Source of the DNA: an uncultured virus (IMG/VR IMGVR_UViG_3300010885_019006)
Lineage: Duplodnaviria > Heunggongvirae > Uroviricota > Caudoviricetes
Length of the DNA: 64,000 nt
Virus record (IMG/VR): IMGVR_UViG_3300010885_019006
Coordinates: 1 to 64,000 of that record
Reading direction: 5' to 3' (one strand)
The notes beneath the pieces are model-generated. The model had not been told where the DNA came from. It saw nothing but the letters and a program-made list of their open reading frames with translations, and ran no database searches. Each line of letters begins with the position of its first letter. Position 1 is the first letter of the stretch. The translations under genes were made by a program, and so were the position numbers. Below, piece after piece: positions 51,123 through 63,168 of this stretch.

Positions 51123-52532
51123 TTAAACAGTATATCGGTCTGACATAACTGCTTTCTTCATAATACCTTCTGGGGTAAAACCTTCCATATCAGCCGCAAG
51201 AACAGCTTTTAGTATGTGGGTATTAAATCCAGATACAAGAGCAACACCCTTAGTATCAAACTTAACTGGGACATTGTCCGCAGCATTTAGGTTCCAGAAC
51301 ACAATCTGTGGCACTTCATATCCAGCCTCTGTGTACTTACGACGGATCATCTGCATTGCAGAATCATCATAACGAGTGCAGCTGTTAAACTGCATGTCTG
51401 ACATGATTAGAAGAACCTGTGGCATATCTTTTGCAGGCACATCATTTTCTCTAGCGACACGTAGAATTTCTTCAAACGCCTTGTTAAGGTCAGTTGACAT
51501 ATTCCATTCAGTCTGACTCATTTGAGCAATCTTCTGGGATAGAGTACCAGTTAGGTGAACGAACTCAGAGTTTGTCGAGAAGGTAAGAAACAGATCCTTA
51601 AAAGGACCAGTGTTCTTATCAGAGCAATAAAGACCAAGGGATATTGCAACATCAAGACAAGTTACAGTCGACTTAGAACCGTAACCACCAGCTGGAGTGC
51701 TCATTGAACCAGATACGTCTACAACTGGCATGACCATTGCATCGCCGATAAAGTTTGGAAGAGCTTTCCACTGCTCATCAGCAAGATCAGAATCACCATA
51801 CTTTATGTTCTTAGTGATGTCATATGGATATACGGCACCTGCATTTACCTTGACTGACTTGTCACCACTCTTGAGCTTTGTCTTGAACTCGGTGAACGAA
51901 TCAGAAGCATTCTTACCGAATGCCTTTGAGTAGCGGCTCATAGCAAGTGATGGAACGTGTGAGAAGTTAATCTCATCCCACTGCTTTGAACACATCTGGG
52001 TCTCAACTACCTTTGTAAGCTCAACTAGTCGCTTACGGTAGTACTTTGGAGACCAACCAAAGGTCTGACGAAGCTCAACTGCAAGAGGGCCCTTTCTTGG
52101 AAGCCACTTGCTGCAGAGACCATTTCCAGCATCAAGTGCTTCCTTGATCATTCCATATGCTTTATCCTTGACGGCAGCATTTGTAAAGACAAGAAGATCA
52201 TCCCAACGACCAAGCTCAACTGTATTCTTTAGAAGGTTAGTTTCAAGAAGAACTTCTGGCCGAGTCTTTTCAAGATACTTTAGAACCTGACGATAAAGCT
52301 CGCGTTCACCTGCACCACCACGAGCATCACGTGCCCACTGTGCAATACGAAGTGCAATATCAGGATTCTCTTGGAAAGCCTTTTCGAACTGAGCGGTAAT
52401 ATCCTTTCCTCTTGATGCGCCTATCTTGAAGAAAAGATCTGTAGTGTTGGAAAGAGTAGACTTGATAGCTTTCATACCGTTCCAGGTACGAGTTGCAACG
52501 GTTGTATTTAGTACAGCATTTTTAAAAGACAT
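51123..52532 (-). CDS. Ro60/TROVE-like helical ring plus vWA protein (DUF2828-type)
   Basis: ARDARGGAGER, GRWDDL, KWLPR, VETQM, VPSLAM, DVSGSM (MIDAS), SDMQFN and VFWNL motifs. Confidence 0.85.
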   Translation of the reverse strand: MSFKNAVLNTTVATRTWNGMKAIKSTLSNTTDLFFKIGASRGKDITAQFEKAFQENPDIALRIAQWARDARGGAGERELYRQVLKYLEKTRPEVLLETNLLKNTVELGRWDDLLVFTNAAVKDKAYGMIKEALDAGNGLCSKWLPRKGPLAVELRQTFGWSPKYYRKRLVELTKVVETQMCSKQWDEINFSHVPSLAMSRYSKAFGKNASDSFTEFKTKLKSGDKSVKVNAGAVYPYDITKNIKYGDSDLADEQWKALPNFIGDAMVMPVVDVSGSMSTPAGGYGSKSTVTCLDVAISLGLYCSDKNTGPFKDLFLTFSTNSEFVHLTGTLSQKIAQMSQTEWNMSTDLNKAFEEILRVARENDVPAKDMPQVLLIMSDMQFNSCTRYDDSAMQMIRRKYTEAGYEVPQIVFWNLNAADNVPVKFDTKGVALVSGFNTHILKAVLAADMEGFTPEGIMKKAVMSDRYTV

Positions 52533-52549
52533 ATTTATTCTCCATATTA

Positions 52550-52601
52550 TACAGGTTAAAGTTTTGCGTTTGATGCAAGATATGTTGCGGAAGTTAACCT
52601 A
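52550..52601 (-). ncRNA. Y-RNA-like element 1 (minimal, 52 nt)
   Basis: TAGGTTAACTTCCGCAA...TTTAACCTGTA; terminal helix AGGTTAA/TTAACCT. Confidence 0.65.
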
Positions 52602-52604
52602 GAG

Positions 52605-52669
52605 CAACAGGATAGCTTTTTGCTGGTTGCTTTATCAGTGCAGTGCAATTGGTTGCTGAAACTATCCTA
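52605..52669 (-). ncRNA. Y-RNA-like element 2 (65 nt)
   Basis: TAGGATAGTTTCAGCAA...GCTATCCTGTTG; terminal helix AGGATAG/CTATCCT. Confidence 0.65.
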
Positions 52670-52684
52670 AATTCAATATTATTT

Positions 52685-52713
52685 AATCTAACACAATTGA
52701 CAATAAATGTCAA
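52685..52713 (-). promoter_or_regulatory. Sigma70-type promoter TTGACA-N17-TAGATT driving Y2, Y1 and the Ro60-like gene
   Basis: tgtcaa at 52708-52713 and aatcta at 52685-52690. Related promoters have -35 boxes at 49604, 53994, 55329, 56384, 58036, 59385, 60560 (TTTACA) and 63841. Confidence 0.8.
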
Positions 52714-52730
52714 CCAAAAAATTCAACGGC

Positions 52731-53564
52731 TTACATCATAAAATCCATAATTGAAGATTTAGGGATGGATACCATATTATCTGGGACTTTTCGTGGTCTT
52801 CCCGGTCTACGTTTAGGTGGTAATATCACTTCATTACTAATACTAGAATTTCCAGCTAATAGAAGAATGATGGCTAAAGGATCAAACACCATTACTATGA
52901 AGATAATGACAAAACGAACCGTTTCATCAAAGTGATTAGAAGCATCCTTCCCATAAATCATCTCTGCAATGTATTTGAGTGGTCCGATGTCTGATGTAGT
53001 TACCGCTTCTTTAGTTTTAAGAGGTAATAACTTAGAATTGAGAACTTCAAGTTTTCCAGTTGAATCGCTTATTTGATTGTCAATCCGCTGCCTCTCAGCC
53101 TTTTGAAGATAACGAACAAAAGGTGCATCTTTTGGATTGGAAGTATTAGCAAAGCGATCTAGTGTATCAAGTGACGTCTGAGCATTTTTAAGTTTACTCT
53201 GTTCAAGATCAAATTGTTCCTGAAGAGGTTGGATTTGCAGATGTGATAACTGCAAACTATCGGCTGTTGCTAAATGTGCTCGAGATAAGTAACCAAATGT
53301 GCCCATTGATGTAAGAAGTACTAGAATAACCGTAGCTAGAATCAGATAAATTCTAATAAGCTTTGGACTAGTCTTCCAGTTGCGCTGGAGCCATGCAGCA
53401 GAAATTATCTTGCTGAACTCTAATGCTGTAGCCATAATCATAACAGCAACTGTAGCACCAGAGAACAGCATAGCCATTCCAGTAATGGAGAAGTATGCTG
53501 ACACACAAGATAAAAATAATGCGGCTAATACTGCTAAATGATTAACAGTAATTCGTTTAATCAT
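52731..53564 (-). CDS. Membrane protein with coiled coil (conserved T4-like hypothetical)
   Basis: SAYFSITG...LEFSK, TSMGTFGYLSRAH, GPLKYIA and FDPLAI motifs; C-terminal KRRPGRPRK. Confidence 0.75.
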   Translation of the reverse strand: MIKRITVNHLAVLAALFLSCVSAYFSITGMAMLFSGATVAVMIMATALEFSKIISAAWLQRNWKTSPKLIRIYLILATVILVLLTSMGTFGYLSRAHLATADSLQLSHLQIQPLQEQFDLEQSKLKNAQTSLDTLDRFANTSNPKDAPFVRYLQKAERQRIDNQISDSTGKLEVLNSKLLPLKTKEAVTTSDIGPLKYIAEMIYGKDASNHFDETVRFVIIFIVMVFDPLAIILLLAGNSSISNEVILPPKRRPGRPRKVPDNMVSIPKSSIMDFMM

Positions 53565-53583
53565 ATAAAAACCTTTTTATCTC

Positions 53584-53688
53584 TTACCAAAGGCGAGTAA
53601 AGTCGCCTTCCCATTTCTCTTCACGTTTCCACTGAGCTTCAATCTCGTGAAAGAATTCAGTATCAAAACCTAACCAAAAATAATACAT
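53584..53688 (-). CDS. Small protein, 34 aa
   Basis: MYYFWLGFDTEFFHEIEAQWKREEKWEGDFTRLW, immediately downstream of Y3. Confidence 0.45.
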   Translation of the reverse strand: MYYFWLGFDTEFFHEIEAQWKREEKWEGDFTRLW

Positions 53689-53703
53689 TCTAATCTCATA
53701 TTT

Positions 53704-53955
53704 CAACGGGTTGTACATTTTGTCGGTTGCCTCTACCACTGGGCTACACCCACATCAACATTCATTACGTGAGGTATCTCCCTGATCTAGGAGACCTTAT
53801 CACAGACCACAGTCACCGTTATGATCACTTACGTGTAACCGAGAATGCCACTTCCGACCTGCGTCCGCCAAAGAGGTAATGAATGATGGTGTGGGCGGTG
53901 GGATTCGAACACCACGCTTTACCGATTCCATAAAAATAATGCTGTAGACAACCCA
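53704..53955 (-). ncRNA. Y-RNA-like element 3 (YrlA-like), containing a circularly permuted tRNA domain
   Basis: GGGTTGT/ACAACCC terminal helix plus TACAGC. The T-arm (GTTCGAATC) and CGCCCAC-ACCA come before GTGGGTG and the D-arm (TAGCCCAGTGGTAGAGGC). It has its own promoter at 53971-53999. Confidence 0.8.
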
Positions 53956-53995
53956 AATTCAATATTATTCAATCTATCATAGTTTACATTTAATG

Positions 53996-54385
53996 TCAAC
54001 CAATTTTTGCGATCTTAAGCAAATTAAATGCCATTAAAACATCTCGGTCATACTCAGAGATTGGATAAACGGCAATTGAAGTAAACTCACCATCTTTTAG
54101 ATCAGGCTCGAAGAACTTCTCATACCGATAACCAAACTTCTTAAGTATTCGCTCAACTGCATTAAGAGCACCAGCATCACGAACACCAATTAGTGTAAAG
54201 TGAGTCTGTTCAGGAACTACCTTATCATTAAACTGACAAGAGACGTAACCATCACCAGAAGCAGTCTTTTCAACAATAGCTCGTTGAGAATGAACACCAA
54301 GTTGAAAAGCAGCATGTGCAGTCTGAACTACTTGTTGCTCAGGCGACATATCTTGTCGGGTGAAAAAATAACTGTAGTATCTCAT
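53996..54385 (-). CDS. Peptidyl-tRNA hydrolase, Pth2-like
   Basis: TRQDMS.EQQVVQTAHAA...FFEPDL....TSIAV resembles the Pth2 fold motifs. Confidence 0.7.
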   Translation of the reverse strand: MRYYSYFFTRQDMSPEQQVVQTAHAAFQLGVHSQRAIVEKTASGDGYVSCQFNDKVVPEQTHFTLIGVRDAGALNAVERILKKFGYRYEKFFEPDLKDGEFTSIAVYPISEYDRDVLMAFNLLKIAKIG

Positions 54386-54386
54386 A

Positions 54387-54770
54387 TCAAAGTCCTTTCA
54401 CAAAGTCAGACGTAATCATAGCAGCAAGTTCTCTAAACTTAACTATTTCTTCTTCTGTAAGAAGTTCAGTAATTTCAGTGTTAAGAATCCAACCATTAGT
54501 TTGTTTCCAACTATCATTTATCCAAACTCTACCACCACGAAGTTTATGTTTAAACCCGTACATATTATTGGTAATAGACTGGTAAGGATACTGACGGTGA
54601 GCACATACCTTACCTGGTGTAAATGATTTGGTGAGAAAATGCTTGAGGATTGTGACCTTGTCTTCTGACTTAGCCTTCATAGTTTTATAGACACATAGTG
54701 CAATAATATCTGCTGCTGTGAGTGTCTTGTTCTTTGCTTTAGTTTTGAATGTAGTAATAAAAGTAGACAT
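54387..54770 (-). CDS. Hypothetical basic protein, first gene of the Pth2-like operon
   Basis: 127-aa ORF whose AAGGA SD lies inside a predicted hairpin. Confidence 0.65.
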   Translation of the reverse strand: MSTFITTFKTKAKNKTLTAADIIALCVYKTMKAKSEDKVTILKHFLTKSFTPGKVCAHRQYPYQSITNNMYGFKHKLRGGRVWINDSWKQTNGWILNTEITELLTEEEIVKFRELAAMITSDFVKGL

Positions 54771-54846
54771 AATAGGATTCCTTTTTGTTTAATAAGAGTT
54801 TGTTTGATCTTATTAAACCTTCGGGAGGTCCTACTGCGTCATACGG

Positions 54847-54867
54847 CTACATAGTTTCGGTACTCAT
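54847..54867 (-). promoter_or_regulatory. Amber-terminated leader ORF MSTETM-TAG (read-through frame open to TAA at 54739)
   Basis: AAGGAAATAGT-ATG AGT ACC GAA ACT ATG TAG CCG TAT GAC GCA GTA GGA CCT CCC. Confidence 0.65.
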
Positions 54868-54891
54868 ACTATTTCCTTTATTTAAGTAAAG

Positions 54892-54969
54892 TGGTGCTTT
54901 GTGGGGGATTTGAACCCCCGACGGCATGATTTTAGAGATCACCGCTCTTGACCACTGAGCTAACAAAGC
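54892..54969 (-). tRNA. Amber suppressor tRNA (anticodon CTA)
   Basis: GCTTTGT TA GCTC-AGTGGTCAA-GAGC G GTGAT-CTCTAAA-ATCAT GCCGTC GGGGG-TTCAAAT-CCCCC ACAAAGC A CCA. Confidence 0.88.
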
Positions 54970-54976
54970 ATAAGAT

Positions 54977-55080
54977 AACAGGTAAGTTGCCTACTTTGTA
55001 TTATTTCCAGACGTACAAAATCGAAAATCGTCCTGGCCGAAGCCTTTTTAAAAGTTTTGCGAGTGGCTGTAACTTACCTA
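54977..55080 (-). ncRNA. Y-RNA-like element 4 (104 nt)
   Basis: TAGGTAAGTTACAGCC...GGCAACTTACCTGTT; terminal helix AGGTAAGTT/AACTTACCT. Confidence 0.65.
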
Positions 55081-55085
55081 AATTT

Positions 55086-55297
55086 CAACGGGATGTTATT
55101 TGAATTCGGATTTTTACCTCTTCTTCTATTCGGAGAAGCCCTATTCCTACATTCGGGTAGGACACCTACTCCTGGTCCGCCAGGCCGTTGTTAATAGCAT
55201 GAGTCGCCGAAGCGCTCAGTGACCGGATTTAACATCGAGAGTACCCGAAGGTACATATGCGCCCGAAGGCTTGAGTCGGTTTGCAGTAACCATCCCT
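55086..55297 (-). ncRNA. Y-RNA-like element 5 (212 nt, multi-hairpin)
   Basis: AGGGATGGTTACTGCAA...TAACATCCCGTTG, with three cTTCGg-capped internal hairpins; promoter at 55307-55334. Confidence 0.65.
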
Positions 55298-55330
55298 TAT
55301 TAGTTTAATATAATCATTTACTTTAAAATG

Positions 55331-55546
55331 TCAACCTTTATCTACAAAAGATTTAAACTTTTTTGCCTCTTCAATAATGCTATCACCAGTAGGATAAGGT
55401 GGGACCTCAACCAAAAACTGAGCACTTTCATTGATTCTTGCCTTTTCGGTAGCAGTTTGCCACTCTACGTGAAACTTTTCTGAAGCTCTCTGTTGAGCTA
55501 GTTTGATCATCTCCATGCGTAGGAGATATGGGGTATCTAGTGACAT
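55331..55546 (-). CDS. Small conserved T4-like hypothetical protein
   Basis: PYLLRMEMIKLA...YPT.DSIIEEAKKFKSFV; late promoter at 55601. Confidence 0.65.
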   Translation of the reverse strand: MSLDTPYLLRMEMIKLAQQRASEKFHVEWQTATEKARINESAQFLVEVPPYPTGDSIIEEAKKFKSFVDKG

Positions 55547-55613
55547 AGTAATTCCTTTGTGTATGTGTATCAGTCCTTAGTCCTGAGACAGTGGACAGAC
55601 TATTTATACACAA

Positions 55614-55943
55614 ACTTAGATGAACCCACTGGAATTTCGGAGAACTAAATTACACCATGTTCAGCTCCGACCATGGTAACCAATGGATTCATCTAAGTGG
55701 TGGATTTCTGTTCAAAGGTACCACCGAACCCGTTGTCTAGGACCTTTCGGCTCCCCCTAAGAGAAGGGCTTACTTAGTAGATAGACAAAATAGAACTTAG
55801 AAGAATGCTGGTTGGGTCGAGTTTGCCGATCTAATGTCGGATATCCATCGGAGAGGTGCGCTCTCCTCTTCCTGCTTATTTGCCGATCAAGACCAGCACT
55901 CATCTAAGTGGTGGGTTTCTGTTTCAAGGTACCCACCAAACCC
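55614..55943 (-). ncRNA. Two tandem pseudoknot-plus-long-hairpin modules downstream of the tmRNA tag
   Basis: GGGTTYGGTGG(G)TACCTT..AACAGAAAYCCACC-ACTTAGATGA occurs twice; each is followed by a rod closed by (T)TC(A/T)TCTAAGT. Confidence 0.55.
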
Positions 55944-56195
55944 ATGTTAAATTAGGCAGCTAGTGCGTAATCAACAATATCGTTATCATTAGATGCGACA
56001 TTTAGTTTGTTTTGGCCGCTCAGCCACCGAATCAGTCTAAGCAATATCCCTATTCCACGAAAATCGAGCCTGTTTCATCCCCATCAGTAGTTATGAGTAA
56101 GCAACATCTAGCCTCTTTCGGCGCCTCATAACTACTGGTGGAGATGGCGGGTACTGCCCCCGCGTCTTTCCGTCTTTATTGTCAGCTTTCAAGCA
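55910..56195 (-). ncRNA. ssrA: Circularly permuted two-piece tmRNA (alphaproteobacterial type)
   Basis: Acceptor piece GCGGG-GGCAGTA-CCCGC CATCTCC ACCA ends at 56136, then an intervening hairpin, then GGGGATG from 56082 (G3-U70). Tag frame 55996-55952 reads ASNDNDIVDYALAA-stop. The outer boundaries are approximate. Confidence 0.9.
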
Positions 56196-56328
56196 ACCAA
56201 TATCTTATTTATATTGTCTTTTATGAAGAAGTTCACGAAAATCGAGCCTGTTTCATCCCCATCAGTAGTTATGAGTAAGCAACATCTAGCCTCTTTCGGC
56301 GCCTCATAACTACTGGTGGAGATGGCGG
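56056..56328. repeat. Exact 95-bp direct repeat (56056-56150 and 56234-56328) of the tmRNA junction
   Basis: cacgaaaatcgagcctgtttcatcccc...ggtggagatggcgg occurs twice. Confidence 0.9.
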
Positions 56329-56385
56329 AAAACATTGTCAATCTCCATTCCTTATAGTTTAGTCTACCATACCATAAGAAAAATG

Positions 56386-56772
56386 TCAATCGGTTTCTGC
56401 ATCTTCTGAAATATATTCTTTCTGAATGACTATTTTAGTCACGACAGTCGGCATTTGTGGACCTGGCATAAGAACTGAAAATGTCTTATTAGTCCAGTAA
56501 AGAGGCCAAAACACACCAGAAAAAAGACCGACCATTCCATCAGGATCATTATCAAAATCTAAACTATAGCAATCTTTACCAGTTGCAACTCGATCTTCTA
56601 ATGTTGAACATTGAGCATCTTTAAAAGCTTGAAGTCTAGCCTTTTCATTATGATGTTCTACTGAAGCAAAGCCAAAGGTTAGTAGAGCAACGATACCATA
56701 AACACCAACCCAGTAACCAAATGAGCGCTCACTTAGCCATTCTTTAAATGTTTTAATATAAGTCAAATACAT
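56386..56772 (-). CDS. Hypothetical membrane protein
   Basis: Two hydrophobic segments and an FWPL motif. Confidence 0.6.
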   Translation of the reverse strand: MYLTYIKTFKEWLSERSFGYWVGVYGIVALLTFGFASVEHHNEKARLQAFKDAQCSTLEDRVATGKDCYSLDFDNDPDGMVGLFSGVFWPLYWTNKTFSVLMPGPQMPTVVTKIVIQKEYISEDAETD

Positions 56773-57983
56773 TAAATTTCTCGCTTCAAACCGTGGAACA
56801 TAGTAGCTACACCAAACCGAGGGACACCATCAGGAGTTCGTTCAAAGAACTTGATAGTCACAATCTTATGAGTCTCAGTAAGAAGTTCTACACCTCGCTC
56901 ATAAGATCCCTTGATTCCAGCCTTAGCGACACGGACAGAGCCTTCAGAAGGAACTACAGTTGAGGAGTACTGTAGCATCTCATCACTACCAGGATTATAG
57001 AACAAATCACCAAAGTTGATTGCGGCACCTGGAACCTTGAAGAAAACAGATTTTGCCGCTCCAGCCCAGTTACCTTGACCTTCCTCAGTCTTGATCATCT
57101 CAAACTCTTCGTCAAGAAAATCCTTGCGCTTCAGAAGGTTCTTAGTCCGGCGATTCTCATACTTTGTATTGTTACGCCACATGGAACCTTCGTAACCAGC
57201 CTCAAGCCATTCGCCATGACACTGGTCAAAACTATCAGCAGTGAAAACAGCCTGAGTAGAAACCAGACGAAGACACTTAGGGCATGGATCTTCCTCATCC
57301 AAGAAAAGACTCTCCAGATACGCATCCCGTTCGGCAAAGTTACCGCTATGAGAGGGCACATCGTAGATATGGTATTGAACCATCGCACGTGTCTTGGTAT
57401 AGTGCTCAGGCGTCAGCTTCTTGTCAGACTTCACACCAATCAGGCTTGCAATCTCATTGAAGTTATCCCGAAGCTCATGGTTGTAAAGTTCACCATCAAA
57501 AATCAGATCAGGATCTTCGGCAAAGAGAGGAGCAAGAGCTTCCATAATATGAGGACTGGAAACAAATGGCTTTCCAGAACGACTCCATAATCCGTCCTTA
57601 TTTGCGATACAACGGAAGCCATCTAGCTTAGGTTGAGCAAAACCAGATTGAAAGTTCTTGGCATCATACTTCTCAGCCAGCATAGCTTCAAAGATATGCG
57701 ATCCACCAGTCTTAGCAGACTCAATGGAAGTATGATAATCCTTTTCACACTTCTTCTTATAGAGAGCTTCAATTTCAAATGCGGCTTGAGCAGAACCATC
57801 ACGTTCATTAGACCGACCAAGATTAGTAGGAAAAGCTATCCGCCATTCAGAACACTTAATCTTTCCACCTTGTGTTCCATCCCATGTACGATACTTATCG
57901 TCCTGTTGTTCAATATACCAAATCCGTACCTTAGACTTGGAATCAACCTTGTAGCACATATCATACATTATAGCCATATTCAA
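56772..57983 (-). CDS. ATP-dependent DNA ligase
   Basis: QPKLDGFRC, FDGELY, YHIYD, GYEGSM and LLKRK motifs, plus a C-terminal OB domain (GVPRF). Confidence 0.9.
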   Translation of the reverse strand: MNMAIMYDMCYKVDSKSKVRIWYIEQQDDKYRTWDGTQGGKIKCSEWRIAFPTNLGRSNERDGSAQAAFEIEALYKKKCEKDYHTSIESAKTGGSHIFEAMLAEKYDAKNFQSGFAQPKLDGFRCIANKDGLWSRSGKPFVSSPHIMEALAPLFAEDPDLIFDGELYNHELRDNFNEIASLIGVKSDKKLTPEHYTKTRAMVQYHIYDVPSHSGNFAERDAYLESLFLDEEDPCPKCLRLVSTQAVFTADSFDQCHGEWLEAGYEGSMWRNNTKYENRRTKNLLKRKDFLDEEFEMIKTEEGQGNWAGAAKSVFFKVPGAAINFGDLFYNPGSDEMLQYSSTVVPSEGSVRVAKAGIKGSYERGVELLTETHKIVTIKFFERTPDGVPRFGVATMFHGLKREI

Positions 57984-62005: not shown

Positions 62006-62080
62006 TGGTATCTCTCGTAGGTTACGCTCCTACTTCTCCAGAATGTCGATCTGGGATTCTAACTAGTGAACTAGAGAGAC
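62006..62080 (-). tRNA. tRNA-Val (GAC), atypical or degenerate
   Basis: CCAGA-TCGACAT-TCTGG anticodon arm; T loop AGCGTAA; D loop lacks GG; CCA end. Confidence 0.6.
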
Positions 62081-62089
62081 ATATAATTC

Positions 62090-62166
62090 TGGTGCCAGGA
62101 GAGGGACTTGAACCCTCAGACATTAGGCTCTCGACCTAATCGCTTTGCCAATTTGCGTATCCGGGC
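62090..62166 (-). tRNA. tRNA-Leu (GAG)
   Basis: TTAGG-TCGAGAG-CCTAA anticodon arm, GGTTCAAGTCC T-arm, CCA end. Confidence 0.8.
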
Positions 62167-62173
62167 ATTAACT

Positions 62174-62252
62174 TGGTGCCTGTAGTGAGACTCGAACTCA
62201 CACTGTAAGCGGTTTTGAACCCCTCGCCTTCTTCCATTTGGGCTACACAGGC
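62174..62252 (-). tRNA. tRNA-Leu (CAA)
   Basis: AGGGG-TTCAAAA-CCGCT anticodon arm, GTTCGAGTC T-arm, CCA end. Confidence 0.8.
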
Positions 62253-62268
62253 ATAATCTATTTATATC

Positions 62269-62343
62269 TGGTGCCCTCACGGAGAATCGAACTCCGACTT
62301 GATCCTTACCAAGGACCCGTTCTGCCGTTACAACTATGTGGGC
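62269..62343 (-). tRNA. tRNA-Thr (GGT)
   Basis: GGTCC-TTGGTAA-GGATC anticodon arm, GTTCGATTC T-arm, CCA end. Confidence 0.85.
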
Positions 62344-62345
62344 AA

Positions 62346-62483
62346 TTATTCTACTTGAACATATCCATAATAAGGTCCACCAAAATGGCATCTATCACTT
62401 CTACTGTTTTTATATCTATAGCAAGAAGTACAAACAGCACACTTCATAAGTGTTGTTGTTTCTTCTTTTTTCTTCTTAGACAT
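62346..62483 (-). CDS. Small Cys-rich protein, 45 aa
   Basis: MSKKKKEETTTLMKCAVCTSCYRYKNSRSDRCHFGGPYYGYVQVE fills the gap between two tRNAs. Confidence 0.45.
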   Translation of the reverse strand: MSKKKKEETTTLMKCAVCTSCYRYKNSRSDRCHFGGPYYGYVQVE

Positions 62484-62496
62484 AAAATTCTTTCAG

Positions 62497-62589
62497 TGGA
62501 GGAAGGCCGAGGTCCCGATCCTCAGACTATATCACTATAGCCCCACTGGTTTAGCAAACCGTGACAATCACCCGACTGCTTGACCTTCC
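62497..62589 (-). tRNA. tRNA-Ser (GCT)
   Basis: GGT-TTGCTAA-ACC anticodon arm, long variable arm, TCCA end. Confidence 0.75.
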
Positions 62590-62594
62590 GTGTA

Positions 62595-62747
62595 TTATTT
62601 TGGTGCCATTGCAATAGCACCCATTCCTGCAAATCCAGCGGCAAAGAAATATGTAGCAATTATATATGGATTTATATTATTAGCAATGTTATTAAATCCT
62701 AGACCAAGATTAAGAATAAGAAGTAAAATTTGTAATACAATCCACAT
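62595..62747 (-). CDS. Small membrane protein, 50 aa
   Basis: MWIVLQILLLILNLGLGFNN..., two hydrophobic segments. Confidence 0.45.
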   Translation of the reverse strand: MWIVLQILLLILNLGLGFNNIANNINPYIIATYFFAAGFAGMGAIAMAPK

Positions 62748-62765
62748 GTCAATTTTCTTTCATAA

Positions 62766-62857
62766 TGGAGGAGCGCGGGATTCCCGCCATCCAGACCTGT
62801 TTTAGAGGTCCCAACCGCTTTCCAAGCGGTGCCAGCACCTCGGCTGGTTCACACTCC
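62766..62857 (-). tRNA. tRNA-Ser (GGA), non-canonical T loop
   Basis: ACCGC-TTGGAAA-GCGGT anticodon arm; paralog of tRNA-Ser(CGA). Confidence 0.8.
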
Positions 62858-62861
62858 AGAC

Positions 62862-63071
62862 TTATTTAGACGTAGTATGCACAGCACCGGTGAAAATACC
62901 AACAAGTATCCATAGACCAAATGCTGATGACCAGTCAATAGCCTTAGCCCATGTCACAGCAGGAACAAGTGAATCATTCCATAGCCACATTATAGGGAAT
63001 GACATAATACAACCTAGAATGATATTAGCTATAATTGAGCCGACAAACTTTGCAAAAGCATCAGAATCCAT
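62862..63071 (-). CDS. Small membrane protein, 69 aa
   Basis: MDSDAFAK...PIMWLWN...IDWSSAFGL with GGAG SD; start re-called to avoid overlapping tRNA-Lys. Confidence 0.6.
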   Translation of the reverse strand: MDSDAFAKFVGSIIANIILGCIMSFPIMWLWNDSLVPAVTWAKAIDWSSAFGLWILVGIFTGAVHTTSK

Positions 63072-63091
63072 AATATTCTCCAAAAGTAAAG

Positions 63092-63168
63092 TGGTGGACA
63101 ATCTGGGGTTCGAACCCAGGACCTCAGGTTTAAAAGACCCGTGCAACTACCAACTGTGCTAATCGTCC
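63092..63168 (-). tRNA. tRNA-Lys (TTT)
   Basis: CGGGT-CTTTTAA-ACCTG anticodon arm, GGTTCGAACCC T-arm, CCA end. Confidence 0.9.

What the first reader, a model, noticed from the sequence alone, without database searches (positions are those of the whole stretch)
54387..54969. Amber suppressor tRNA, amber leader ORF and SD-sequestering hairpin: a candidate read-through sensor controlling a Pth2-like operon
Seen: 24 nt after the CCA of the CTA-anticodon tRNA is an ATG, preceded by AAGGA, that opens MSTETM-TAG (TAG at 54847-54849). Read-through continues PYDAVGPPEGLIRSNKLLLNKKESYYVYFYYYIQN to TAA at 54739, overlapping the next start. The GTA-GGA-CCT codons (TAGGA-CCT) can pair with AGG-AA-TCCTA, which contains the SD of the 54770 gene, around an 11-bp inner helix GTTTAATAAGA/TCTTATTAAAC. 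Known: GPP is a slow, EF-P-dependent triplet resembling RAGP/RAPP arrest motifs, and leader ribosomes can open SD-blocking hairpins. Inference: termination at UAG leaves the SD hidden. Suppression or RF1 failure moves the ribosome onto the anti-SD and switches on the 127-aa protein and peptidyl-tRNA hydrolase.
Basis: partly seen in the sequence, partly recalled or inferred. Interest (0 to 1): 0.88.

Follow-up and report, generated by a model that had tools for sequence, protein, structure and literature searches.

The report
Suppressor-tRNA-gated leader switch in phage
A freshwater phage places a tiny leader gene with a built-in UAG stop between its own UAG-reading tRNA and an unknown gene, so that gene is probably translated only when the tRNA reads the stop through; dozens of diverged phages keep the same design.

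Summary
It comprises a tRNA-CUA (54892-54969, minus strand), the leader MSTETM-UAG-PYDAVGPP, and a long hairpin that pairs the Gly-Pro-Pro codons with the Shine-Dalgarno (SD) sequence and the AUG of the 127-aa gene.

Comparison shows a widespread phage cassette. In 52 of 55 unique upstream regions of an unrelated 120-aa gene family, found by protein homology alone, I see the same architecture. It is a short ORF, an in-frame stop, 2-7 codons ending Pro-Pro (usually followed by a stop), a hairpin hiding the SD, then the gene. Controls gave 0-2 of 55.

- **Gate codon:** UAG in 66 of 67 variants. The one UGA gate sits 25 nt after a tRNA-UCA.
- **Anti-SD position:** it always lies inside the footprint of a ribosome at Pro-Pro and almost always outside that of a ribosome at the gate.
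- **Cultured carriers:** phages DSS3_MAL1 and Synechococcus phage BUCT-ZZ01.

Most likely it is a translational switch that reports suppressor activity. No experiment exists yet. The regulated proteins have no recognisable fold, and only the second gene is weakly Pth2-like. I found no paper describing the design. Earlier notes of this scan report the same design on other DNA.

The parts
55307..55334 (-). Promoter-like site (TTGACA, 16 nt, TATATT; 11 of 12 matches) upstream of a structured RNA, the tRNA and the leader. It is the possible start of the transcript that carries them.
   Evidence: The scan reported no minus-strand terminator-like site anywhere in 53500-56500, so none between here and the genes. 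This is a consensus match only.
54892..54969 (-). tRNA with anticodon CUA (amber suppressor type), anticodon loop CUCUAAA, 3' CCA encoded.
   Evidence: ARAGORN; Rfam RF00005 63.1 bits; sequence. The amino-acid identity was not determined.
54874..54878 (-). Shine-Dalgarno-like AAGGA of the leader ORF, 6 nt before its ATG.
   Evidence: Sequence.
54850..54867 (-). Pre-gate leader ORF, MSTETM.
   Evidence: L005 encodes the same six residues with two synonymous changes (AGT to AGC, ACC to ACT).
54847..54849 (-). Gate codon UAG, in frame, followed by C.
   Evidence: A TAG is kept at this position in all 13 distinct variants of this leader type and in 66 of 67 leader variants overall.
54823..54846 (-). 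Post-gate codons PYDAVGPP. The Pro-Pro codons (54828-54823) are the proposed pause site.
   Evidence: Relatives keep PYDA[IV]GPP, with one D-to-H change (L002), while third codon positions vary.
54824..54835 (-). Anti-SD strand: AGUAGGA pairs with the SD-AUG spacer, and UCC pairs with the GGA of the SD.
   Evidence: Pair list.
54787..54818 (-). Inner 11-bp hairpin (GUUUAAUAAGA, 10-nt loop, UCUUAUUAAAC).
   Evidence: Relatives have at least six different stem sequences at this place that stay complementary.
54771..54783 (-). SD (AAGGA, 54783-54779) and spacer (UCCUAUU) of the 127-aa gene. This is the sequestered strand.
   Evidence: With a ribosome placed at the gate the structure is -19.4 kcal/mol. 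With a ribosome at Pro-Pro, -0.7 kcal/mol remains.
54387..54770 (-). 127-aa gene of unknown function. It is the gene whose initiation region is hidden.
   Evidence: ORF; 34 homologues, none named. The AlphaFold2 model is confident (pLDDT 91.8) but has no fold match.
54739..54741 (-). TAA that ends the read-through frame, 30 nt inside the 127-aa gene and out of frame with it.
53996..54385 (-). 129-aa gene, weakly Pth2-like. Its start lies 1 nt after the stop of the 127-aa gene, so it is probably translationally coupled.
   Evidence: ORFs; phrog_3668 'hydrolase' at 9.8e-05. PF01981 PTH2 is hit by 14 of 33 family members at E <= 1 (best 4.7e-05), but not by the window protein itself. The family profile matches PDB 24bt_A, a peptidyl-tRNA hydrolase, at E = 0.0019.

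Best explanation
This is a cis-acting translational switch read by the phage's own suppressor tRNA.

1. The tRNA-CUA, the leader and the two genes are probably made as one transcript.
2. A ribosome starts on the leader (MSTETM) and meets UAG.
3. If release factor 1 wins, the ribosome leaves about 13 nt before the anti-SD strand. The long hairpin stays closed, and the SD and AUG of the 127-aa gene remain hidden.
4. If the charged tRNA-CUA wins, the ribosome goes on for eight codons and slows at Gly-Pro-Pro. Pro-Pro bond formation is slow. In most relatives a stop follows directly, and release after Pro-Pro is slow too.
5. In that position the ribosome holds the anti-SD strand inside its mRNA channel. 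The SD is free, and a second ribosome can start on the 127-aa gene, with the Pth2-like gene coupled behind it.

Output therefore follows the ratio of suppressor activity to RF1 activity.

What is shown: the sequence features, their conservation, the match between gate codon and tRNA anticodon, and the geometry. What is inferred: that the tRNA is charged and suppresses, that Pro-Pro pauses the ribosome long enough, and that unmasking raises expression. What the 127-aa protein does is unknown.
For: **The window.**
- All parts are present, and the fold has z = -3.0.
- The sequestering structure is -19.4 kcal/mol with a ribosome at the gate and -0.7 kcal/mol with one at Pro-Pro.

**Relatives found through the downstream protein only.**
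- All five other contigs with a 127-aa homologue (53-71% identity) have a short ORF, then TAG, then PYDA[IV]GPP, a hairpin, the SD and ATG. One has D-to-H.
- L010 and L011 keep the design with different peptides: TAG-QVRGPP-TAA and TAG-TYNYSRGPP-TAA.

**An unrelated gene family carries the same leader.**
- The 120-aa family is not detectably related to the 127-aa family (hhalign probability 0.65%).
- 52 of 55 unique upstream regions parse as start, gate, x-Pro-Pro. Gates are TAG 51, TGA 1, TAA 0. A stop follows Pro-Pro directly in 41.
- Controls: reverse complement 2 of 55; 20 shuffle rounds 0-1 of 55; other segments of the same loci 4 of 259, none with TAG.

**The gate matches the tRNA (67 variants).**
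- ARAGORN finds a tRNA-CUA upstream on the same strand in 59: 54, four more, and one through a fuller copy.
- Three more have CUA in an odd anticodon loop, and one more was judged by eye.
- The single TGA gate (L212) lies 25 nt after a tRNA-UCA.

**Signs that the post-gate frame is translated.**
- Pro-Pro is always in frame with the gate.
- Pro third positions use all four bases (Pro1 T21 A33 G9 C4; Pro2 T28 G12 C13 A14).
- In 34 of 67 variants the Pro codons are not the anti-SD yet are still kept.
- Ungated variants end a longer upstream ORF in ..VPP-stop or ..WAPP-stop at the same place (L208, L236/L237).

**Geometry.**
- The SD core is paired in 66 of 67 MFE folds, and its partner is always in the Pro-Pro codons or within 20 nt after them.
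- The anti-SD starts 13-28 nt after the first base of the gate (one outlier at 7). It ends at -2 to +14 from the first base of Pro2.
- A ribosome covers about 12-15 nt past its P site (passage seen in PMC8012679).

**SD accessibility.** The median probability that the SD is unpaired is 0.22 with a ribosome at the gate, 0.71 or 0.68 at Pro-Pro, and 0.42 in shuffled controls.

**Published arrest cores.** RAPP and RGPP are robust arrest cores that EF-P does not relieve (abstract of PMC12992588). RGPP occurs in L010, L011, L159, L167 and L042.
Against: - There is no experimental datum: no reporter assay, toeprint or Ribo-seq.
- The window's core is VGPP without Arg. A plain GPP pause is normally relieved by EF-P and may be short.
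- In the window, and in 16 of 67 variants, the read-through frame has no stop within two codons of Pro-Pro. In the window it runs across the SD and the AUG. Ribosomes that escape the pause could therefore also occlude initiation.
- My averaged accessibility measure hardly changes for the window itself (0.42 to 0.47). The two A residues of AAGGA are unpaired in both states, so only the GGA core and the free energy show the switch.
- Exceptions exist. L204 and L249/L250 have a TAG gate but their neighbouring tRNA is Val-UAC. L224 and L229 have no suppressor detected within the locus. L236/L237 are ungated although a tRNA-CUA lies about 450 nt upstream. In L233 the SD is unpaired in the MFE fold.
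- The amino acid carried by the tRNA, and whether any synthetase charges it, are unknown.
- The UGA/UCA match rests on one contig with no close relative in the collection.
Confidence: 0.7

Rival explanations
1. Read-through represses rather than activates. Ribosomes that pass the gate run over the SD and AUG, as the frame does in the window. Alternatively they stall at Pro-Pro-stop, provoke mRNA cleavage and tmRNA action, and lower expression of the next gene. Basal expression would then come from breathing of the hairpin.
For: In the window the read-through frame crosses the SD and start and ends 30 nt inside the gene. A phage tmRNA lies close by in the window and in many relatives. A passage in PMC8012679 links suppressor read-through to tmRNA.
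Against: In 45 of 67 variants a stop follows Pro-Pro directly, so ribosomes never reach the SD. The anti-SD always lies inside the footprint of the paused ribosome, which is the geometry of an unmasking device as in secM or ermC. With the ribosome at the gate the SD core is paired in 66 of 67 folds, so the default state is off.
Confidence: 0.1
2. This is an ordinary coupling leader. The device is a Pro-Pro-stop pause plus hairpin that couples the gene to upstream translation. The UAG only keeps basal flow low through rare near-cognate read-through and has nothing to do with the phage tRNA, which serves some other purpose.
For: Ungated versions exist in which a longer ORF ends in PP-stop at the same place (L208, L236/L237). 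A few gated leaders have no suppressor tRNA in the fetched locus (L204, L224, L229, L249/L250).
Against: The gate is TAG in 51 of 52 independent cases, never TAA, and TGA once, exactly where the neighbouring tRNA reads UGA. In 45 of the 67 variants the suppressor tRNA ends at most 40 nt before the parsed leader start. Of 117 matches to a CUA-tRNA pattern in phage contigs, only 4 have a TAG...GPP motif downstream. The pairing is therefore specific and not a general property of such tRNAs.
Confidence: 0.08
3. The element works at the RNA level only. The hairpin would be a tRNA 3'-trailer processing or stability element, and CCNCC would be conserved merely as an anti-SD. The small ORF and its stop would be incidental and untranslated.
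For: CCUCC is complementary to GGAGG. In 32 of 67 variants the Pro codons themselves pair with the SD. The tRNA lies directly upstream, so processing signals are expected there.
Against: In 34 of 67 variants the anti-SD lies after the Pro codons, yet Pro-Pro is kept in frame with the gate and a start codon that has its own SD. Third positions of both Pro codons vary freely. Pre-gate codons change synonymously between the window and L005. A stop follows Pro-Pro directly in 41 of 52 real upstream regions and in 0 of the 6 control parses. No U-tract follows the hairpin, and no minus-strand terminator-like site was found.
Confidence: 0.05

Closest known systems
RAPP/RGPP-type regulatory arrest peptides (ApdA, ApdP, ApcA; SecM with RAGP). 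Seen: abstracts of PMC12992588 and, in the search listing, of PMC10951233 and PMC7897499.
   Same: A short upstream ORF ends in x-Pro-Pro, and a ribosome held there exposes the initiation region of the next gene. Several relatives carry an exact RGPP core (L010, L011, L159, L167, L042).
   Different: Here an in-frame stop codon lies 4-9 codons upstream of the end of Pro-Pro, so the arrest site is reached only by suppression. The nascent chain is very short (7-18 residues). The window has VGPP and the commonest cores are R/K-P-P-stop. The input is a tRNA, not the secretion machinery. Arrest has not been shown.
Leader-peptide translational attenuation (the ermC and ermB leaders). Named from my own knowledge.
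   Same: A ribosome stalled in a leader ORF melts a hairpin that hides the SD of the downstream gene.
   Different: The trigger there is an antibiotic bound to the ribosome. Here it is decoding of a stop codon by a suppressor tRNA.
Amino-acid operon attenuators (trp, his) and T-box leaders, which sense a specific tRNA. Named from my own knowledge; the trp and tna leaders are mentioned in PMC6412442 (passages seen).
   Same: The progress of a leader ribosome at codons for one particular tRNA, or direct tRNA binding in T-box leaders, reports on that tRNA and sets expression of the downstream genes.
   Different: Those act on transcription termination and sense scarcity of a sense-codon tRNA. This one acts on initiation, senses a stop-codon reader in competition with RF1, and turns on when decoding succeeds.
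prfB (RF2) autoregulation through an in-frame UGA. Recalled; no call.
   Same: An in-frame stop codon early in an ORF serves as a sensor of termination efficiency.
   Different: prfB escapes by a +1 frameshift within its own gene. Here escape is by a suppressor tRNA, and the output is unmasking of a separate gene.
Engineered amber-codon leader switches (a TAG placed in a leader peptide and read by an orthogonal suppressor tRNA). Passages and the Figure 8 legend of PMC6412442 seen; it cites Nat Biotechnol 2011;29:164.
   Same: [quoted passage not shown]
   Different: Those are synthetic and act on transcription through rut-site masking. This one is natural, conserved, and acts on an SD hairpin.
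Suppressor tRNAs of stop-codon-recoded phages such as crAss-like phages. Only the search-listing abstracts of PMC7886860 seen.
   Same: A phage-encoded tRNA-CUA.
   Different: This phage uses the standard code. Open ORFs of up to 1857 aa fill the window, and crude ORF calls cover 89% of the genome under table 11 with TAA 47, TGA 25 and TAG 9 stops. Here the tRNA has a specific, adjacent target.

Membership tests
tRNA (amber suppressor type) | Cloverleaf that scores as a tRNA | tested here: met
   Rfam RF00005 63.1 bits against a gathering score of 29; ARAGORN call.
tRNA (amber suppressor type) | Anticodon CUA in a 7-nt loop | tested here: met
   ARAGORN gives anticodon cta at position 35; the loop CUCUAAA is visible.
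tRNA (amber suppressor type) | Is aminoacylated and suppresses UAG in vivo | not testable with these tools
   This needs a suppression assay. Identity elements were not resolved: the discriminator base is A in the window and G in L010 and L015.
RAPP/RGPP-like arrest peptide | C-terminal core Arg-(Ala/Gly)-Pro-Pro | tested here: not met
   The window has Val-Gly-Pro-Pro. RGPP is present in the relatives L010, L011, L159, L167 and L042.
RAPP/RGPP-like arrest peptide | Encoded upstream of a gene whose initiation region is in a structure opened by the stalled ribosome | tested here: met
   Predicted pairing; geometry across 66 variants.
RAPP/RGPP-like arrest peptide | Demonstrated elongation or termination arrest (toeprint, peptidyl-tRNA accumulation) | not testable with these tools
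Leader-peptide translational attenuator (erm type) | Short translated ORF with its own SD upstream of the regulated gene | tested here: met
   AAGGA lies 6 nt before the ATG. Synonymous changes occur in pre-gate codons between relatives.
Leader-peptide translational attenuator (erm type) | SD of the regulated gene sequestered in a conserved hairpin | tested here: met
   The SD core is paired in 66 of 67 MFE folds, and P(unpaired) is below the shuffled controls.
Peptidyl-tRNA hydrolase 2 (PF01981 PTH2), for the 129-aa protein | Significant match to the family profile | tested here: inconclusive
   The window protein has no Pfam hit even at E <= 1. 14 of 33 family members hit PTH2, best 4.7e-05. 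The family profile against PDB 24bt_A gives E = 0.0019 over nearly the full length. phrog_3668 'hydrolase' scores 9.8e-05. Catalytic residues were not examined and no structure was predicted.
Stop-codon-recoded phage (TAG read as sense genome-wide) | Genes interrupted by in-frame TAG; coding density collapses under table 11 | tested here: not met
   Uninterrupted ORFs of up to 1857 aa tile the window under table 11. Coverage is 89% with crude ORF calls.

The most novel reading that the evidence does not exclude
The amber (and occasional opal) suppressor tRNAs carried by standard-code phages may not be decoding aids at all. They may be dedicated trans-acting regulators. Each would be paired with a matching gate codon in an adjacent leader, forming a self-contained tRNA-to-leader-to-gene switch. 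This would be a natural counterpart of engineered amber-suppression gene circuits. It would let the phage time, or make conditional on a working tRNA-maturation, charging and termination balance, the synthesis of small unknown proteins. These may themselves act on termination, tRNAs or ribosome rescue.
Probability: 0.35. Interest if true: 0.92.

Novelty: new variant of a known kind. Interest (0 to 1): 0.85.

Why it matters
Suppressor tRNAs in phages that use the standard genetic code have had no known target. One genome announcement says so outright (abstract of PMC9022506, seen in the listing). This cassette supplies a specific, adjacent, conserved target.

It would add a new input, stop-codon decoding by a trans-acting tRNA, to the known family of ribosome-stalling leader switches. 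It would be a natural version of the amber-codon switches that synthetic biologists build. It also marks two families of small, confidently folding proteins of unknown function as outputs of the switch: 34 and 538 homologues, mostly embedded in phage tRNA arrays. That makes them prime candidates for factors acting on termination, tRNAs or ribosome rescue.

The design occurs in two cultured phages, Bacteriophage DSS3_MAL1 and Synechococcus phage BUCT-ZZ01. It can therefore be tested directly.

Tried and rejected
**Searches that found nothing**
- DNA similarity of 53900-56300 to GenBank phages: no match.
- tblastn of the 127-aa protein against the same collection: no match.
- The leader DNA pattern in one genome per prokaryote species: 0 hits. 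No prophage copy or host was identified.
- Rfam at permissive thresholds over 52400-56500: only the tRNA and the tmRNA, nothing for the leader or the structured RNA upstream.

**Function of the 127-aa and 120-aa proteins**
- No Pfam family, and no informative PHROG.
- Profile searches against PDB sequences gave nothing below E = 0.1.
- Foldseek against PDB gave nothing at E <= 0.001 for either model.
- VIA-align wide for the 127-aa model gave a best Z of 5.2, within the range the tool calls uninformative for helical proteins.
- ESM Atlas: only unnamed clusters below 0.9 for the 127-aa protein, and no usable hit for the 120-aa protein.
- hhalign of the two families: no relation.

**T-box idea.** I considered that UAG acts as a specifier codon with a UGGN bulge that pairs with the tRNA's NCCA end. 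I rejected it by eye: no UGGN motif is conserved, and the codon-position pattern fits translation.

**Intrinsic terminator or attenuator.** Rejected. No U-tract follows the hairpin, and no minus-strand terminator-like site was found.

**Public runs.** Two lake metatranscriptome contig sets and one DNA run were laid on 53996-55340. The RNA-library contigs cover only 55059-55250. They say nothing about the leader, and contigs cannot show transcript ends.

**Loose motif.** TAG...GPP near CUA-type tRNAs is not significant on its own. It occurs downstream of 4 of 117 matches and upstream of 1, and by my own estimate chance could give as many. Only the full architecture is significant.

**Relatives of the UGA-gated locus L212.** None closer than 61% identity were found, so that match stays a single case.

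**Literature.** Four searches for this design and a fifth for papers on the two cultured phages found no description of a natural suppressor-gated leader. A sixth search looked up RAPP arrest peptides.
Full report
**1.

The features lie on the minus strand.
- ARAGORN calls a tRNA with anticodon CUA at 54892-54969. Rfam scores it 63.1 bits against a gathering score of 29.
- Its CCA is encoded. 24 nt later an ATG (54867-54865), preceded by AAGGA, opens MSTETM followed by TAG at 54849-54847.
- Read through, the frame gives PYDAVGPPEGLIRSNKLLLNKKESYYVYFYYYIQN and stops at TAA 54741-54739, inside the next gene, which starts at 54770.

The predicted fold (-26.5 kcal/mol) is one long irregular hairpin.
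- An inner 11-bp helix pairs 54818-54808 with 54787-54797.
- An outer helix pairs A54835-A54829 with U54771-U54777.
- U54826-C54825-C54824 of the two Pro codons pair with A54779-G54780-G54781, the GGA of the SD.
- An extension pairs 54844-54837 with 54763-54769 and covers two bases of the AUG.

The 156-nt region folds better than 199 of 200 dinucleotide shuffles (z = -3.0). A strict scan of the 74-kb genome finds this architecture once with a TAG gate and never with TAA or TGA gates.

**2. The genome**

- The window is part of a large freshwater phage. It is identical to a 141.8-kb IMG/VR contig and to a 187.6-kb metagenome contig.
- It uses the standard code. ORFs of up to 1857 aa tile the window under table 11. 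Crude ORF calls give TAA 47, TGA 25 and TAG 9 stops.
- The neighbourhood is rich in RNA and translation functions. It holds a two-piece alpha-type tmRNA, a Ro60/TROVE-like protein, a tRNA cluster and a structured RNA under a strong promoter-like site.

**3. Relatives found through the downstream protein**

- The five other contigs that encode a 127-aa homologue (53-71% identity) all carry the same layout upstream: a short ORF, TAG, then PYDA[IV]GPP (one with D-to-H), a hairpin, an SD and the ATG.
- Pre-gate codons change synonymously. The window and L005 both encode MSTETM, with AGT/AGC and ACC/ACT.
- In L004 and L005 the pre-gate ORF is about 45 codons long and is conserved as protein. A related form is seen in L249/L250.
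- What follows Pro-Pro is not conserved: TAA at once in L002, Ile-TGA in the L015 group, longer tails elsewhere.
- A degenerate DNA pattern recovered 13 distinct variants of this leader type. Within the freedom the pattern allowed, the Gly codon uses all four third bases, and the Pro codons use two and three.
- L010 and L011 were found through the Pth2-like protein. They lack that pattern but keep the design with other peptides: MRNKQL-TAG-QVRGPP-TAA and MKSNQAECW-TAG-TYNYSRGPP-TAA.
- The inner stems of these relatives have at least six different sequences that remain complementary. In every fold the Gly-Pro-Pro codons pair with the SD region.

**4. The leader is a module, not part of one operon**

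- In the L015/L022 group the same PYDAIGPP leader precedes a different gene. It encodes 120 aa and is followed by a Ro60-like gene, with no Pth2-like gene.
- The two downstream families are not detectably related (hhalign probability 0.65%).
- The 120-aa family is large: 538 homologues, none informatively named.
- I fetched 80 viral loci through an alignment of this family, that is, blind to the leader. They gave 55 unique upstream regions of at least 100 nt.
- 52 of the 55 parse as start codon with SD, 0-10 codons, in-frame stop, 2-7 codons ending Pro-Pro. The gate is TAG in 51, TGA in 1 and TAA in 0. A stop follows Pro-Pro directly in 41.
- The same parser finds 2 of 55 on the reverse complements, 0-1 of 55 in each of 20 shuffles, and 4 of 259 in other segments of the same loci, none of them with TAG.
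- The three misses are L180 (TAG present, but ..GPS-stop), L208 (a longer upstream ORF ending ..VPP-stop, no gate) and L217 (tRNAs directly upstream, no leader).
- Across all 67 variants I counted 31 different post-gate peptides. The commonest are IRPP, ITKPP, ITRPP, VFRPP and PYDAIGPP.
- The residue before Pro-Pro is R 21, G 18, K 11, S 7, H 4, D 3 and others 3. The base after the gate is A 37, C 16, G 14, and never U.

**5. Who reads the gate**

- Of the 67 variants, ARAGORN finds a tRNA-CUA upstream on the same strand in 54.
- Four more (L158, L167, L190, L206) have one. My segment had cut them.
- L006 is truncated inside the tRNA, and its fuller copies show it.
- Three have a tRNA with CUA in an unusual loop. 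In L183 I see a CUCUAAA loop with a T arm by eye.
- L204, L224 and L229 remain unresolved. L204, like L249/L250 outside the set of 67, has tRNA-Val(UAC) as neighbour.
- In 45 of the 67 variants the suppressor tRNA ends at most 40 nt before the parsed leader start.
- The single TGA gate (L212: ATG TTG TGA GTA TAC GCG CCA CCT TAA) lies 25 nt after a tRNA with anticodon UCA.
I did not test it.
- Conversely, only 4 of 117 matches to a CUA-tRNA pattern in viral contigs have a TAG...GPP motif downstream. One of them (L120, a GC-rich phage) and one upstream hit (L042) are further true cases with homologous downstream genes.

**6. Geometry**

- With the region folded from the gate onward, the SD core is paired in 66 of 67 variants. 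Its partner is in the Pro-Pro codons in 32 and within 20 nt after them in 34. It is never elsewhere.
- The anti-SD starts 13-28 nt after the first base of the gate (median 22.5, one outlier at 7). It ends between -2 and +14 from the first base of the second Pro codon.
- A ribosome shields about 12-15 nt beyond its P site (passage in PMC8012679).
- So a ribosome terminating at the gate leaves the helix intact, while one holding Pro-Pro in its P site has the anti-SD inside it.
- Where the gate-to-Pro-Pro distance is short (IRPP), the anti-SD has moved behind the stop. Where it is long (PYDAIGPP), the anti-SD is in the Pro codons. This is what the model requires.
- The probability that the SD is unpaired has a median of 0.22 with the ribosome at the gate, 0.71 or 0.68 at Pro-Pro, and 0.42 in shuffled controls.
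- For the window this averaged measure moves little (0.42 to 0.47) because the two A residues are always open. The GGA core goes from fully paired to free, and the structure from -19.4 to -0.7 kcal/mol.

**7. Mechanism**

The best explanation is a translational switch.
- Termination at the gate leaves the gene off.
- Suppression carries the ribosome to Pro-Pro, where slow peptide-bond formation or slow release holds it on the anti-SD. The SD is freed for a second ribosome.
- The input is the balance between charged suppressor tRNA and RF1.
- RAPP and RGPP cores give robust arrest that EF-P does not relieve (abstract of PMC12992588). Several relatives have RGPP. The window has VGPP, so its pause may be weaker.
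- That a Pro-Pro C-terminus slows release and attracts tmRNA is my recollection of the literature, not a call.
- Ungated variants (L208, L236/L237) suggest that the PP-stop plus hairpin coupling device is the older part. The gate would then have been added to make it depend on the tRNA.

**8. The regulated genes**

- The 127-aa protein models confidently (pLDDT 91.8), as does the 120-aa protein (91.4). Neither matches a known fold or family.
- The 129-aa protein starts 1 nt after the 127-aa stop. It is weakly Pth2-like.
- It follows the leader-controlled gene in the window, L010, L011 and L042. It is absent from the 120-aa clade and stands without a leader in L008.
- One attractive reading is speculative. 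Suppressor read-through creates non-stop complexes that tmRNA must clear (passage and reference in PMC8012679). On that view the tmRNA and the Pth2-like enzyme would be a clean-up kit switched on together with suppression.

**9. Novelty**

- Four literature searches for this design and a fifth for papers on the two cultured phages found no natural example.
- The nearest items are engineered TAG-in-leader switches (PMC6412442) and arrest-peptide work.
- Earlier notes of this scan (e1-5911500, e1-5675211, e1-5965075) describe the same design on other genomes and also found no paper.
- The principle of a stalled leader ribosome unmasking an SD is known. The gating by a stop codon matched to a phage suppressor tRNA is new. 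I therefore class it as a new variant of a known kind.
- Two cultured phages carry it. Bacteriophage DSS3_MAL1 has MKS-TAG-IRPPP-TGA. Synechococcus phage BUCT-ZZ01 has MGGDAS-TAG-INLKPP-TAA with a tmRNA nearby.

**10. Limits**

- Everything rests on sequence comparison and predicted folds.
- The variants are unique sequences but they are related, so the counts are not independent events.
- Five of the 67 variants (L027, L029, L031, L034, L035) were found with a pattern that imposed part of the motif.
- Supplementary files of the papers were not consulted.

Noticed in passing
window 55907-56231 (-), with repeats at 56056-56150 / 56234-56328 and 55689-55736 / 55900-55947: The phage encodes a two-piece (permuted) alpha-type tmRNA: Rfam alpha_tmRNA 89.8 bits and tmRNA_permuted 75.3 bits. 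The tag reading frame ends ..NDNDIVDYALAA. A 95-nt piece of it is duplicated exactly 178 nt upstream, and a 48-nt piece that contains its 3' end has an 81% copy 211 nt downstream. Relatives carry tmRNAs next to the same cassette.
   Followed up: partly
window 54970-55305 (-), core 55059-55250: A GC-rich region with four UUCG-type tetraloops lies directly after a near-consensus promoter-like site (55334-55307) and directly before the tRNA-CUA. It has no Rfam match, and its fold energy is not unusual (z = -0.7). Short contigs from two lake-water RNA libraries of two studies cover exactly 55059-55250 and 55114-55219. It may be a stable small RNA, perhaps a Y-RNA-like partner of the nearby Ro60-like protein.
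   Followed up: partly
window 51123-52532 (-); gaps 52533-52730 and 53565-53995: A Ro60/TROVE-like protein: DUF2828 plus DUF7788, and phrog_850 'RNA-binding protein' at 1e-139. It is conserved next to the cassette in L008, L010, L011, L012 and L022. The ORF-poor gaps beside it could hold Y-RNA-like genes. None was identified.
   Followed up: no
window 55331-55546 (-): A 71-aa ORF (MSLDTPYLLRMEMIKLAQQRASEKF...) lies between the tmRNA and the structured RNA. It is conserved in L008, L010 and L011. It has no family.
   Followed up: no
L004 2778-2920, L005 about 2787-2917, L249/L250 upstream of 1201: In some phages the pre-gate ORF is not a mini-leader. It is a conserved ORF of about 45 aa (..YTSxRVFEGK..EEAERHRxRL..) whose stop codon is the gate. 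Read-through would extend a real small protein by x-Pro-Pro.
   Followed up: partly
L208 and L236/L237, upstream of 1201: These are ungated versions of the cassette. A longer upstream ORF ends in ..VPP-stop or ..WAPP-stop at the usual distance from the hairpin and SD, without an in-frame stop before it. L236 still has a tRNA-CUA about 450 nt upstream.
   Followed up: partly
L178 222-297, L188 942-1017, L226 122-196: tRNA genes next to gated leaders for which ARAGORN reports a two-base anticodon 'ct'. Their anticodon loops contain CUA but have an unusual length or register.
   Followed up: no
window 56772-57983 (-) and 62006-63168 (-): An ATP-dependent DNA ligase (PF01068, phrog_114) and a cluster of five further tRNA genes: Val-GAC, Leu-GAG, Leu-CAA, Thr-GGT and Lys-TTT.
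   Followed up: no
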